NCBI RefSeq assembly: GCF_044324785.1
Contig: NZ_CP172127.1
Source: Escherichia coli
Lineage (GTDB): Bacteria; Pseudomonadota; Gammaproteobacteria; Enterobacterales; Enterobacteriaceae
Reading direction: 5' to 3' (one strand)
Length of the DNA: 64,000 bases
A model generated the notes under the pieces. The model was not told where the DNA came from. It saw nothing but the letters and a program-made list of their open reading frames with translations, and searched no databases. Below are positions 1-2,896 of this stretch, piece by piece (the stretch's first letter is position 1; each line of letters begins with the position of its first letter). The position numbers and the translations under genes were made by a program.

Positions 1-203
1 AGGAAGGTCTGGCGCTGGTCGCGTTGATTGGCAATGACCTGTCAAAAGCCTGCGGCGTTGGCAAAGAGGTATTCGGCGTACTGGAACCGTTCAACATTCG
101 CATGATTTGTTACGGCGCATCCAGCCATAACCTGTGCTTCCTGGTGCCCGGCGAAGATGCCGAGCAGGTGGTGCAAAAACTGCATAGTAATTTGTTTGAG
201 TAA
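1..203 (+). CDS. lysC: Aspartokinase III, C-terminal fragment (5' end lies outside the window)
   Basis: In-frame translation ends ...CFLVPGEDAEQVVQKLHSNLFE with stop at 201-203, matching the LysC C-terminus; truncated by window edge. Confidence 0.8.
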   Translation, partial: EGLALVALIGNDLSKACGVGKEVFGVLEPFNIRMICYGASSHNLCFLVPGEDAEQVVQKLHSNLFE

Positions 204-455
204 ATACTGTATGGCCTGGAAGCTATATTTCGGGCCGTATTGATTTTCTTGTCACTATGCTCATCAATAAACGAGCCTGTACTCTGTTAACCAACGTCTT
301 TATCGGAGAATAATTGCCTTTAATTTTTTTATCTGCATCTCTAATTAATTATCGAAAGAGATAAATAGTTAAGAGAAGGCAAAATGAATATTATCAGTTC
401 TGCTCGCAAACGAATTCCCGTACACTGAACTCTCTGGCTCACTGAGGGCACCATC

Positions 456-728
456 ATGGCACTCCCCCGTATTACCCAAAAAGAGATGACTGAACGCGAG
501 CAGCGTGAACTTAAAACACTGCTGGATCGGGCGCGGATTGCGCATGGTCGCGTACTGACCAACTCCGAAACCAACAGCATTAAGAAAGAGTACATCGATA
601 AATTAATGGTCGAGCGTGAGGCTGAAGCGAAAAAAGCCCGCCAGTTAAAGAAAAAGCAGGCTTATAAACCGGATCCTGAGGCGTCATTTAGCTGGTCAGC
701 AAATACGTCGACGCGCGGCAGGCGCTGA
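456..728 (+). CDS. yjbD: DUF3811 family small basic protein
   Basis: 90-aa ORF MALPRITQKEMTEREQRELK...; conserved position between lysC and rluF. Confidence 0.75.
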   Translation: MALPRITQKEMTEREQRELKTLLDRARIAHGRVLTNSETNSIKKEYIDKLMVEREAEAKKARQLKKKQAYKPDPEASFSWSANTSTRGRR

Positions 729-1601
729 TTAACGCCCCTTCTTTTTACGCCCCGGCGAGGTAAAACGCTTACCGTTGGACGCCGGGCGACCGCCTTTTTC
801 CGCCGTTTTTTCCATCTTAACGACTGGACGTTTGATGCCTACCGTTTTCGGTTTGGCCTTCGCTTTAGGTTTTGCCTCGGAAGAGGAATTTTCAATGTGC
901 TTAAAGAGATCGATTAACTCATCGTCGGTTAAATCGCGCCACTCACCCAGCGGAATGCCGCTTAAGCTGACGTTCATAATGCGCGTACGTTCCAGCTTTT
1001 TCACTTCGTAACCAAAGTGCTCGCACATGCGACGAATCTGACGGTTCAGCCCCTGCACCAGGGTAATGCGGAAGACAAACGGCGCTTCTTTTTTGACTTT
1101 GCACTTTTTCGTCACCGTCCCGAGGATCGGCACCCCCGCCCCCATACCACGAATAAATTCATCGGTAATCGGTTTATCGACCGTCACCAGATACTCTTTC
1201 TCATGATCGTTACCCGCACGGAGGATCTTATTCACCAGATCGCCGTGATTGGTGAGGAAAATCAGCCCCTGAGAGTCTTTATCCAGGCGGCCAATCGGGA
1301 ACACGCGTTTGCTGTGGTTAACGAAATCGACAATGTTATCGCGCTCGCCATCTTCGGTGGTGCTGACAATACCGACGGGCTTGTTCAGGGCGATAAGTAC
1401 CAAATCTTCGGCTTCCCGAGGCTCAATCAACTGACCGTTTACTTTCACAACGTCGCCGGGTTTCACCTGATCGCCAATGGTGGCTCGCTTGCCATTAAGG
1501 AACACATTGCCTTGCTCGATATAGCGATCCGCTTCGCGGCGTGAGCAAATTCCGCTTTCGCTGATGTATTTATTTAAACGGACTGATGAGTCGGGCAGCA
1601 T
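729..1601 (-). CDS. rluF: 23S rRNA pseudouridine synthase RluF
   Basis: 290-aa ORF with S4 domain and RluA/RsuA-type pseudouridine synthase motifs ([10 protein letters not shown]). Confidence 0.9.
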
Positions 1602-1948
1602 AAATTCTCCTGTAAAACGCGGAATATACCGTACCTCTTAGCGGGGAAAAACAGGGTTATGCGGCAACGTCGAAATTAAATGTGATCTGCCACGCCTTTT
1701 ATCACAAAAGTGTCTCCGGAAGTACGATGCAAATTTGCCTGGCAAAATAAGGATAATCAACATATTACGAATCGCTGCACACCTGTGCTGATGACTACTA
1801 CGCAGAGAAACAAATGTGCAAGAGAAAGCGCTATTTCTCCCCATGCAAAGAGTGAAAAATCGCTTTGAAAGGCCATCATGATGGGGTTATATCAGATCAA
1901 GCGGTGAGAAAGCGTATTTGCACAAATGTGCAGAACCAGGAGGCGGCA

Positions 1949-2896
1949 ATGGAAAACAGTGACGATATCCGTTTGATTGTGAAGATTGCCCAACTCTATT
2001 ACGAACAGGATATGACGCAGGCGCAAATCGCGCGCGAACTGGGTATTTACCGCACCACCATCAGCCGCTTGCTTAAACGAGGCCGCGATCAGGGAATTGT
2101 CACCATCGCCATCAACTATGACTACAACGAAAATCTCTGGCTGGAGCAGCAACTGAAGCAAAAGTTTGGCCTGAAAGACGTTGTGGTGGTGTCGGGAAAT
2201 GATGAGGATGAAGAGACTCAACTGGCGATGATGGGGTTACACGGCGCGCAACTGCTGGATCGCTTGCTGGAGCCTGGCGATATTGTCGGTTTTTCCTGGG
2301 GTCGCGCGGTGAGCGCACTGGTTGAAAACTTGCCGCAGGCGGGGCAATCGCGGCAGTTAATCTGCGTACCAATTATTGGCGGACCGTCCGGTAAACTCGA
2401 AAGCCGCTATCATGTAAACACATTAACCTACAGCGCGGCAGCGAAGTTGAAAGGGGAATCGCATCTCGCGGATTTTCCGGCTCTACTGGATAACCCATTA
2501 ATTCGTAATGGGATCATGCAGTCTCAGCACTTTAAAACCATCTCTGCCTACTGGGATAATCTGGATGTCGCCCTGGTGGGAATTGGCTCACCGGCCATTC
2601 GCGACGGCGCTAACTGGCATGCGTTTTATGGTGGTGAAGAGAGTGACGACCTGAATGCCCGCCAGGTTGCTGGCGATATTTGCTCGCGCTTTTTTGATAT
2701 TCACGGCGCAATGGTTGAAACGAATATGAGCGAAAAAACACTCTCTATCGAAATGAATAAATTAAAGCAGGCGCGATATTCCATTGGCATTGCCATGAGC
2801 GAAGAAAAATACAGTGGAATTGTTGGTGCACTGCGTGGAAAATATATTAATTGTCTGGTAACGAATAGCAGCACAGCTGAACTATTACTGAAATAA
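1949..2896 (+). CDS. sorC: SorC-family transcriptional regulator of the sorbose operon
   Basis: 315 aa from ATG 1949 with AGGAGG RBS at 1937-1942; N-terminal HTH (MTQAQIARELGIYRTTISRLLKRG) plus sugar-phosphate binding domain; the ORF track's longer form uses an upstream TTG that I consider less likely. Confidence 0.8.
   Translation: MENSDDIRLIVKIAQLYYEQDMTQAQIARELGIYRTTISRLLKRGRDQGIVTIAINYDYNENLWLEQQLKQKFGLKDVVVVSGNDEDEETQLAMMGLHGAQLLDRLLEPGDIVGFSWGRAVSALVENLPQAGQSRQLICVPIIGGPSGKLESRYHVNTLTYSAAAKLKGESHLADFPALLDNPLIRNGIMQSQHFKTISAYWDNLDVALVGIGSPAIRDGANWHAFYGGEESDDLNARQVAGDICSRFFDIHGAMVETNMSEKTLSIEMNKLKQARYSIGIAMSEEKYSGIVGALRGKYINCLVTNSSTAELLLK

What the first reader, a model, noticed from the sequence alone, without database searches (positions are those of the whole stretch)
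384..428. Unannotated 14-codon ORF with a Shine-Dalgarno-like sequence upstream of yjbD
ATG at 384 is preceded about 9 nt upstream by aagagaagg and encodes MNIISSARKRIPVH before a TGA at 426-428, ending 27 nt before the yjbD start. It could be a leader peptide or small protein, or simply chance. There is no support beyond the RBS-like spacing.
Basis: seen in the sequence. Interest (0 to 1): 0.15.

Follow-up and report, generated by a model that had tools for sequence, protein, structure and literature searches.

The report
Chance mini-ORF over the yjbD promoter
The 14-codon reading frame upstream of E. coli yjbD is really there. It is no more than chance would give, it is missing from about 29% of E. 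coli genomes and from other enterobacteria, and it overlaps what looks like the yjbD promoter, so it is almost certainly not a gene or a leader peptide.

Summary
The ORF is exactly as described: ATG 384, MNIISSARKRIPVH, TGA 426-428, 27 nt before yjbD. It is identical in K-12 MG1655 and is not annotated there. Nothing lifts it above chance.

- **Ribosome-binding site.** The Shine-Dalgarno (SD) match is moderate (-5.1 kcal/mol), and 11% of all ATGs in the window do as well. About 13% of shuffled copies of this intergenic region contain an equal or better ORF.
- **Conservation across 80 Enterobacteriaceae species.** The start codon sits in unalignable DNA (identity 0.09/0.06/0.28).
- **Conservation within Escherichia.** The start is lost (AGG, CAC), or the ORF stops at codon 10 (TGA/TAA), or the region is replaced.
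- **Conservation within E. coli.** About 71% of 5,424 complete genomes are near the ATG haplotype. About 29% fall in identity classes whose sampled representatives carry AGG.
- **Substitution pattern.** Variants fall 6/4/3 on codon positions 1/2/3, which gives no coding signature.
- **RNA structure.** No attenuator-like structure follows the ORF.

What is conserved is TTnC(C/T)(G/T)TACACTG (415-427). This block covers the ORF's last codons and stop, and lies 34-36 nt from the yjbD ATG in 74 of the 78 loci where a -10-like hexamer could be located. The yjbD SD (GAGG) is also conserved. I read the block as the yjbD -10 promoter element; that is an inference, because no start-site data could be reached. 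Verdict: an ordinary chance ORF.

The parts
384..428 (+). The 14-codon ORF (MNIISSARKRIPVH, TGA stop), in frame with yjbD. Judged a chance ORF with no selected function.
   Evidence: sequence and translation. (chance expectation). (no conservation of start, length or frame). (ATG/AGG polymorphism in E. coli).
371..379 (+). Purine-rich SD-like run aagagaagg. Its 3' end lies 4 nt before the ATG.
   Evidence: Duplex with the 16S 3' end is -5.1 kcal/mol, matched or beaten by 11% of all ATGs in the window. It changes to aagaagaga in the second E. coli haplotype. Cross-species identity is 0.03-0.29.
415..427 (+). Conserved block TTnC(C/T)(G/T)TACACTG. TACACT at 421-426 is inferred to be the -10 hexamer of the yjbD promoter. 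It overlaps the ORF's last four codons and its stop.
   Evidence: Per-column identity is 0.94-1.00 for 421-427 and 0.96-0.97 for T416 and C418 across 80 species. TACACT lies 34-36 nt from the yjbD ATG in 74 of the 78 loci where a -10-like hexamer could be located. Homology of rearranged E. coli and E. albertii loci resumes at about 412. The promoter role is inferred; no transcription start data could be reached.
444..448 (+). Shine-Dalgarno sequence of yjbD (GAGGG), 7 nt before the ATG.
   Evidence: Identity is 0.95-0.99 for GAGG across 80 species. Duplex energy is -6.1 kcal/mol.
456..728 (+). yjbD (DUF3811 protein, 90 aa), the downstream gene.
   Evidence: ORF. (annotation). (347 homologues, PF11656). 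The same protein accession, WP_001207638.1, occurs in all three upstream haplotypes.
209..250 (+). Terminator-like hairpin plus T-rich tail just after the lysC stop (203). It is the likely lysC terminator and would limit read-through into the ORF.
   Evidence: This is a consensus scan only: 1 found against 1.0 expected in shuffles.
287..314 (+). Sigma-70 promoter-like match (TTAACC-16-AATAAT). It is the only predicted promoter that could put the ORF on an mRNA.
   Evidence: This is a consensus scan only: 1 found against 1.1 expected in shuffles. It lies in DNA that is absent from the second E. coli haplotype.

Best explanation
The 14-codon frame is a fortuitous ORF in the A+T-rich, fast-evolving DNA just upstream of the yjbD core promoter. 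It is neither a selected small-protein gene nor a leader peptide.

The functional elements in this stretch are a conserved -10-like hexamer TACACT (421-426, inside the conserved block 415-427) and the yjbD Shine-Dalgarno GAGGG (444-448). With TACACT as the -10 element, yjbD transcription would start near 433, giving a 5' UTR of about 22 nt. The ORF's ATG (384) would then lie about 50 nt upstream of the start site and would be absent from the main yjbD mRNA. The ORF's 'stop codon' is simply the T of the -10 hexamer plus the next two bases.

Any translation of the ORF would have to come from lysC read-through or from a weak upstream promoter, and would have no consequence.

Shown: the ORF exists; it is within chance expectation; its start, length and frame are not conserved; the conserved block and its fixed distance from yjbD.

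Inferred: that the block is the promoter -10 element, and where transcription starts.
For: Chance:
- The SD is moderate (-5.1 kcal/mol), and 11% of window ATGs equal it.
- The window holds 82 comparable ORFs in 2 x 64 kb.
- 12.9% of shuffled intergenic regions give such an ORF.

No conservation across genera (80 species):
- The ATG columns have identity 0.09/0.06/0.28 and the SD-like run 0.03-0.29.
- Positions 421-427 score 0.94-1.00 and GAGG 0.95-0.99.

No conservation within Escherichia:
- ATG becomes AGG in L005 and in E. coli L083, L084 and L085. It becomes CAC in L004.
- Codon 10, CGA, becomes TGA or TAA in L004, L005, L007, L008 and L085. The two outgroups that keep the ATG therefore encode only 9 residues.
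- E. albertii (L003), L006 and E. coli L086 carry unrelated sequence upstream of about 412.
- Thirteen variant sites fall 6/4/3 on codon positions 1/2/3.

E. coli population:
- 3,701 + 167 of 5,424 genomes are near the window haplotype.
- 1,336 + 115 are near the AGG haplotype.
- About 105 more are in a diverged class, and its one sampled member (L085) has AGG.
- The YjbD protein is identical (WP_001207638.1) in all haplotypes, so yjbD is maintained without the ORF.

The stop codon is not fixed:
- Position 428 is A in only 59% of species, otherwise mostly G, which gives TGG.
- A real TGA to TTA variant occurs in E. coli assemblies.

No regulatory architecture:
- RNA 375-480 folds worse than 198 of 200 shuffles (z +1.88).
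- There is no terminator between the ORF and yjbD.
- There is no Rfam hit.

Promoter inference: TACACT lies 34-36 nt from the ATG in 74 of the 78 loci where a -10-like hexamer could be located. In divergent taxa the variants (TAGACT, TACATT) keep the T, A and final T that define a -10 hexamer.
Against: - No transcription start site or ribosome-profiling data could be reached, so both the promoter position and the absence of translation are inferred.
- The -35 region is weak in E. coli (TTCTGC, 2 of 6). Across species it is barely better than control offsets (mean 2.73 against 2.41 matches). The conserved block could therefore be an operator or an RNA element instead.
- In the Enterobacter clade the CTG after TACA forms the 5' arm of a strong hairpin. 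That sits awkwardly with a start site 7 nt downstream of TACACT.
- The ATG is present in two outgroup Escherichia lineages (L007, L008), so it is not brand new.
- A promoter-like site at 287-314 could in principle place the ORF on a longer yjbD transcript.
- The 29% figure rests on three sampled representatives of the identity classes below 95%.
Confidence: 0.8

Rival explanations
1. Translated but neutral 'proto-gene'. The ORF is transcribed at low level by lysC read-through or from the 287-314 promoter-like site, and ribosomes initiate at its ATG. It would be one of the hundreds of short, unconserved translated ORFs seen in E. coli, with no effect on fitness.
For: The SD-like run and ATG are adequate for initiation. 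A promoter-like site lies upstream. Stringer et al. (bioRxiv 10.1101/2021.07.02.450978) report about 400 novel translated ORFs in E. coli, most of them not under purifying selection. This ORF's polymorphism pattern fits that picture.
Against: No translation data for this position could be reached; the stored supplement is cut at 1.13 Mb. The terminator-like hairpin after lysC and the inferred start site downstream of the ATG would keep its mRNA level low. In the predicted fold of 321-480 the SD-like run is paired.
Confidence: 0.13
2. E. coli-specific regulatory upstream ORF (leader peptide). Its translation would tune yjbD expression, for example by opening the mRNA around the yjbD SD or through ribosome re-initiation 27 nt downstream.
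For: The ORF ends 16 nt before the yjbD SD and is on the same strand and in the same frame. Known regulatory uORFs can be this short.
Against: The start is missing in about 29% of E. coli genomes and in almost all other genera, while YjbD itself is unchanged. The length varies (9 or 14 codons) and the stop is lost in natural variants. There is no stable structure to be unmasked (z +1.88; 421-464 folds at -6.2 kcal/mol, z 0.2). There are no regulatory codon runs and no terminator. The ORF is probably upstream of the start site.
Confidence: 0.04
3. N-terminal extension of YjbD. The ATG at 384 would be an alternative yjbD start used through TGA read-through, or in strains that have lost the stop, giving a 114-residue isoform.
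For: The ORF is in frame with yjbD. Public databases hold 113-114-residue versions starting MNIISSARKRIPVH. At least one of these reflects a real TGA to TTA change in E. coli assemblies.
Against: Being in frame has a 1-in-3 prior. One database 'fusion' (P0003) keeps TGA in its DNA and does not translate to the database protein under the standard bacterial code, consistent with the gene having been called under a code that reads TGA as Trp. The 24-residue extension is not conserved in any other genus. yjbD has its own highly conserved SD and ATG. The longer calls are what gene finders produce automatically once the stop is gone.
Confidence: 0.02

Closest known systems
Unconserved short translated ORFs ('pervasive translation' or proto-genes) in E. 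coli intergenic regions, as catalogued by Ribo-RET/Api-seq (Stringer et al., bioRxiv 10.1101/2021.07.02.450978)
   Same: Very short, ATG-initiated with a moderate SD, located in an intergenic region, and not under purifying selection. It is lineage-restricted and polymorphic.
   Different: Those ORFs have direct ribosome-occupancy evidence at both the start and the stop codon. None could be obtained for this ORF, and it probably lies upstream of the nearest transcription start.
Enterobacterial attenuation and regulatory leader peptides (trpL, thrL, hisL, pheL, ilvL, leuL, pyrL, tnaC, mgtL; from general knowledge)
   Same: A short ORF of about 14-30 codons immediately upstream of, and on the same strand as, a structural gene.
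   Different: Those leader ORFs are conserved with their genes across Enterobacteriaceae. They carry diagnostic codon runs or arrest motifs, lie downstream of the promoter, and are followed by alternative hairpins or a terminator or Rho site. None of these holds here.
Sigma-70/sigma-S type core promoter (-10 hexamer TATAAT or TATACT), as a comparison for the conserved block 415-427
   Same: TACACT matches TATAAT at 4 of 6 positions and the sigma-S-favoured TATACT at 5 of 6, including the key T-12, A-11 and T-7. It sits at a fixed distance upstream of a conserved SD and ATG.
   Different: There is no convincing conserved -35 element and no TG extended -10. The additional conserved T416 and C418 are not explained by the standard model. 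No start site was mapped.

Membership tests
Transcription-attenuation / regulatory leader peptide | ORF start codon and reading frame conserved together with the downstream gene in related genera | tested here: not met
   Across 80 yjbD loci the ATG columns show identity 0.09/0.06/0.28. Within Escherichia the start is lost or the ORF is truncated to 9 codons.
Transcription-attenuation / regulatory leader peptide | Terminator/antiterminator or other stable alternative structure between the leader ORF and the gene | tested here: not met
   No terminator-like site lies between 384 and 456. RNA 375-480 is less stable than 198 of 200 shuffles (z +1.88).
Transcription-attenuation / regulatory leader peptide | Run of regulatory codons or a known arrest motif in the peptide | tested here: not met
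   MNIISSARKRIPVH has no run longer than two identical residues. Recognition of arrest motifs rests on general knowledge only.
Transcription-attenuation / regulatory leader peptide | ORF lies within the 5' leader, downstream of the transcription start | not testable with these tools
   No start-site data could be reached. The conserved -10-like hexamer at 421-426 implies the opposite.
Functional bacterial small protein (50 aa or fewer) | Purifying selection on the coding frame (third-position bias, no nonsense or start-loss alleles at appreciable frequency) | tested here: not met
   Variants fall 6/4/3 on codon positions 1/2/3. There are two kinds of start loss and two kinds of premature stop. 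The AGG allele class covers about 27-29% of 5,424 genomes. A stop-loss TTA variant exists.
Functional bacterial small protein (50 aa or fewer) | Direct evidence of translation (ribosome profiling, tagging, mass spectrometry) | not testable with these tools
   The Stringer et al. supplement is stored only up to 1.13 Mb on the plus strand. Other tables are not held. No paper in the library links yjbD to a small ORF.
Sigma-70-type promoter (for the conserved block 415-427) | -10 hexamer with T-12, A-11 and T-7 at a fixed position upstream of the gene | tested here: met
   TACACT is found in 74 of the 78 loci where a -10-like hexamer could be located (TAGACT x2, TACATT x1, TAAATT x1 in the others). 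In 74 of the 78 the hexamer lies 34-36 nt from the ATG. Identity is 0.96-1.00.
Sigma-70-type promoter (for the conserved block 415-427) | -35 hexamer 16-18 bp upstream | tested here: inconclusive
   The best match in E. coli is TTCTGC (2 of 6). The mean best match across species is 2.73, against 2.41 at control offsets. Many genera carry CTRTCM (3-4 of 6) at an 18 bp spacing.
Sigma-70-type promoter (for the conserved block 415-427) | Mapped transcription start about 7 nt downstream of the -10 element | not testable with these tools
   No TSS table covering K-12 4.23 Mb was readable.

The most novel reading that the evidence does not exclude
The ORF is a young, Escherichia-restricted, presence/absence-polymorphic translated upstream ORF. 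It would be a de novo 'proto-gene' caught in the act: ATG against AGG at the start, and CGA against TGA/TAA at codon 10. About 71% of E. coli genomes would carry the full 14-codon form, so natural alleles would offer a ready-made test of whether its translation affects yjbD.
Probability: 0.1. Interest if true: 0.3.

Novelty: not a real feature. Interest (0 to 1): 0.04.

Why it matters
It matters little. The result removes a candidate from the small-protein and leader-peptide list, and it shows why an SD-like motif followed by a short ORF is weak evidence in A+T-rich promoter-proximal DNA.

The modestly useful by-products are:
- a sharply conserved promoter-like block in front of the uncharacterised gene yjbD (DUF3811);
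- a clade-specific hairpin that masks the yjbD ribosome-binding site in Enterobacter-like genera;
- a three-haplotype picture of the lysC-yjbD junction in E. coli.

Tried and rejected
1. **Ribosome-profiling evidence.** The Stringer et al. supplement showed no hit for the peptide, the coordinates or yjbD. The stored copy stops at 1,134,978 on the plus strand, so this negative is uninformative. The Weaver et al. preprint has no stored supplement. The journal versions are not held. PMC8765459 turned out to be a different paper.

2. **Transcription start evidence.** Thomason 2015 is not held. The Kim 2012, Ettwiller 2016 and Yan 2018 supplements have no entry for 42316xx/42317xx, for the old-coordinate 42296xx/42297xx, or for yjbD; they are probably truncated. 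Conway 2014 has no stored supplement.

3. **Literature on yjbD.** There are only incidental mentions: a G-quadruplex screen and a C. elegans dauer screen.

4. **A natural 'fusion' as evidence that the upstream ATG is used.** P0003 (114 aa, VHW...TIIALPR) looked like a compensated pair of mutations. Its DNA keeps TGA and has ATC at the yjbD start, and it does not translate to the database protein under the standard code. The fusion is therefore not real; the likely cause is gene calling under a TGA=Trp code. This was rejected as evidence. Other members (P0122, L at the stop position) are real TGA to TTA variants. They show only that gene callers extend the ORF once the stop is gone.

5. **Other identities for the conserved block.** Rfam has no match. 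By inspection (my own knowledge, not a tool) it does not fit the sigma-32, sigma-E, sigma-54 or sigma-28 consensus, nor a LexA, CRP or TyrR box.

6. **Exact look-up of the 14-residue peptide** in the protein collection.

Full report
**Where the window comes from.** The window starts at the 3' end of lysC (stop at 203). This is followed by a 252-nt intergenic region, yjbD (456-728, + strand, a DUF3811 protein) and convergent rluF. It is an E. coli chromosome in the opposite orientation to K-12. Window position p corresponds to K-12 MG1655 coordinate 4,232,087 - p.

**Observation.**
- ATG 384-386 opens a frame reading MNIISSARKRIPVH and closing with TGA at 426-428. There are 27 nt between it and the yjbD ATG.
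- The purine-rich aagagaagg is at 371-379. Its last G is only 4 nt from the ATG, a short spacing for an SD.
- K-12 MG1655 is identical across the ORF, with one difference in the whole intergenic region at window 295.
- Neither the curated K-12 record nor a PGAP annotation lists a gene there.

**Is it more than chance?** It is not.
- The best duplex between the 16S 3' end and the 16 nt upstream of the ATG is -5.1 kcal/mol. The figure for yjbD is -6.1.
- Of the 1,925 ATGs on both strands of the window, 11% score at least as well.
- There are 82 ATG ORFs of 10-50 codons with an equal or better SD in the 2 x 64 kb.
- In 2,000 dinucleotide-preserving shuffles of 204-455 (with the real yjbD appended), 16.4% contain at least one such ORF of 10 or more codons, and 12.9% contain one of 14 or more codons.
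- A reader scanning every intergenic region of a 64-kb window should expect to meet several of these.

**Conservation across Enterobacteriaceae.** An alignment of YjbD homologues was used to fetch 80 orthologous loci, one per species, from GTDB representative genomes. I aligned the 130 nt upstream of yjbD and scored each window position.
- The three start-codon columns have identity 0.09, 0.06 and 0.28. The SD-like run scores 0.03-0.29, in a region that is about 50% gaps.
- Conservation switches on abruptly at 415: T415 0.80, T416 0.96, C418 0.97, then T421 A422 C423 A424 C425 T426 G427 at 0.94-1.00.
- It reappears at the yjbD SD (G444 A445 G446 G447, 0.95-0.99) and at the ATG.
- Position 428, the last base of the ORF's TGA, is A in only 59% of species. 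It is mostly G elsewhere, giving TGG.
- The only part of the ORF that is conserved is therefore its last four codons. They are conserved as a DNA motif, TTnC(C/T)(G/T)TACACTG, and not as a stop codon.

**Conservation within Escherichia.**
- *Cryptic lineages that keep the ATG.* Escherichia sp. E1V33 (L007) and E. whittamii (L008) keep it, but codon 10 is TGA or TAA, so the frame is 9 codons. A 1-nt deletion near the yjbD SD also removes the in-frame relationship.
- *Lineages without the ATG.* Escherichia sp. MOD1-EC7003 (L005) has AGG at the start and TAA at codon 10. L004 has CAC.
- *Lineages with unrelated upstream sequence.* E. albertii (L003) and L006 carry unrelated sequence upstream of about 412.
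- *Substitution pattern.* Thirteen distinct variant sites in the 45 nt fall 6/4/3 on codon positions 1/2/3. They include two kinds of start loss and two kinds of nonsense change. There is no hint of purifying selection on a protein.

**E. coli population.** I used the 111-nt query 360-470.
- Of 5,424 complete genomes, 3,701 are at least 99% identical to the window, 167 are at 95-99%, 1,440 are at 90-95% and 116 are at 80-90%.
- Representatives of the classes below 95% (L083, L084, L085) all carry AGG instead of ATG and aagaagaga instead of aagagaagg.
- Searching with the L083 version gives 1,336 genomes at 99% or better and 115 at 95-99%.
- About 71% of E. coli genomes therefore carry the ATG haplotype, and about 29% fall in classes whose sampled members have no start codon.
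- The second haplotype comes with a three-gene island between lysC and yjbD, encoding a zeta-toxin family protein, a nucleotidyltransferase and a slipin.
- A rarer third arrangement adds a PTS/DeoR island whose last gene ends 62 nt before yjbD. It replaces the ORF's 5' two-thirds.
- The YjbD protein accession is the same (WP_001207638.1) in all three arrangements. yjbD is therefore maintained whether or not the ORF is present.

**The in-frame 'fusions'.** Public protein sets contain 113-114-residue YjbD versions that begin MNIISSARKRIPVH.
- One of them (P0003, W at the stop position, I at the yjbD start) looked like a compensated fusion. Its contig keeps TGA and has ATC at the yjbD start, and it does not translate to the database protein under the standard code. 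The fusion is not real. The likely cause is gene calling under a code that reads TGA as Trp.
- Another (P0122, L at the stop position) is a real TGA to TTA change, seen on at least 24 contigs.
- These cases show that the stop is not fixed, and that gene finders extend yjbD automatically once it is lost. They do not show that the upstream ATG is used.

**Regulatory architecture.**
- Nothing resembling an attenuator follows the ORF. No terminator-like site lies between 384 and 456.
- RNA 375-480 folds at -12.8 kcal/mol, worse than 198 of 200 shuffles (z +1.88).
- RNA 421-464 folds at -6.2 kcal/mol (z 0.2).
- The peptide has no codon run of the kind used by amino-acid attenuators.
- Rfam has no match in 1-1000 other than a chance RNase P fragment, at 12 bits against a threshold of 100.

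**What the conserved block most likely is.**
- A -10-like hexamer could be located in 78 of the loci. It reads TACACT in 74 of them, and in 74 of the 78 it lies 34-36 nt from the yjbD ATG.
- The variants in divergent taxa (TAGACT, TACATT) keep T-12, A-11 and T-7, the signature positions of a -10 hexamer.
- TACACT matches TATAAT at 4 of 6 positions and the sigma-S-type TATACT at 5 of 6 (consensus from general knowledge).
- In E. coli and E. albertii strains whose upstream DNA has been replaced, homology resumes at about 412. The unit that travels with yjbD is therefore this block plus the SD.
- I infer that it is the core promoter, with a start site near 433 and a 5' UTR of about 22 nt. The ORF's ATG would then lie about 50 nt upstream of the transcript.
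- Caveats: the -35 is weak (TTCTGC, 2 of 6, in E. coli). Across species the best -35 match (2.73) barely exceeds control offsets (2.41), although many genera have CTRTCM at an 18 bp spacing. T416 and C418 are unexplained. No start-site table could be read.
- A consensus scan finds one promoter-like site upstream (287-314) and a lysC terminator-like hairpin (209-240). Both are at the frequency expected by chance.

**Comparison with known systems.**
- As a leader peptide, the ORF fails every testable defining feature: conservation, regulatory codons, alternative structures, and probably position relative to the promoter.
- As a functional small protein, it fails the conservation and selection tests. 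Translation could not be tested.
- Its closest analogue is the large class of short, unconserved ORFs that ribosome profiling finds translated in E. coli, which their discoverers judge to be mostly not under purifying selection (Stringer et al.). Even membership of that class is unproven here, because the stored supplementary table stops at 1.13 Mb.

**Verdict.**
- The leader-peptide and small-protein readings are not supported.
- The residual probability lies mainly with neutral low-level translation (about 0.13) and very little with a regulatory uORF (about 0.04).
- Interest is low.

Noticed in passing
window 415-427 (and the same position in L003-L082): A sharply conserved motif TTnC(C/T)(G/T)TACACTG lies 34-36 nt upstream of the yjbD ATG in nearly all of the 80 Enterobacteriaceae species, while everything further upstream is unalignable. 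It is probably the -10 promoter element of the uncharacterised gene yjbD. The conserved T416 and C418 and the weak -35 are unexplained, so it could also be an operator.
   Followed up: partly
L055:2971-2998 and the equivalent positions in L056-L080 (Enterobacter, Lelliottia, Leclercia, Pseudescherichia, Huaxiibacter and related genera): In this clade the yjbD 5' region forms a near-perfect 11-bp hairpin, CTGAAGCCTCC...GGAGGCTTCAG, that buries the Shine-Dalgarno sequence (-20.8 kcal/mol, z -4.9, 0 of 200 shuffles as stable). One A-U to G-C compensatory pair occurs in L076. E. coli, Citrobacter, Klebsiella and Salmonella lack it (z 0.2 to 1.6). It may be a translational switch or thermometer. 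Its 5' arm starts inside the conserved TACACTG.
   Followed up: partly
between window 203 and about 412; loci L090 and L091: The lysC-yjbD junction is an insertion hot spot in E. coli. About 27% of complete genomes carry a three-gene island here (zeta-toxin family protein, nucleotidyltransferase, slipin). A rarer type adds a PTS transporter / HAD hydrolase / DeoR island abutting yjbD. In other genera REP-like elements or a different upstream gene sit at the same point.
   Followed up: partly
window 328-365: There is an imperfect 38-bp palindrome (TTTATCTGCATCTCTAATT / AATTATCGAAAGAGATAAA, 74% complementary, no spacer) in the A+T-rich DNA upstream of the ORF. It is partly retained in the second E. 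coli haplotype. It could be a protein-binding site. In the predicted RNA fold it pairs with the ORF's SD-like run.
   Followed up: no
proteins P0003 and P0121-P0127; loci L089 and L092: Public protein collections hold 113-114-residue 'YjbD' entries that begin with the mini-ORF. One (P0003) keeps TGA in its DNA and does not translate to the database protein under the standard code, which suggests it was called under a TGA=Trp code. Some are real stop-loss variants (TGA to TTA; also Cys and Trp versions). One GenBank K-12 entry (CQR83404.1, 113 aa) simply skips the stop codon.
   Followed up: partly
hit H15 (NZ_CM184353.1): One E. coli strain has an IS1A element inserted within the lysC-yjbD-rluF stretch matched by window 150-760.
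   Followed up: no
window 1865-2896 and beyond; L091 9671-15384: Unlike K-12, where pepE follows rluF, this window carries a SorC-type sugar-binding regulator beyond rluF. A related strain with the same regulator carries a full sorbose-type PTS operon ending in sorE at that position. This is a second variable island flanking the small yjbD-rluF unit.
   Followed up: no
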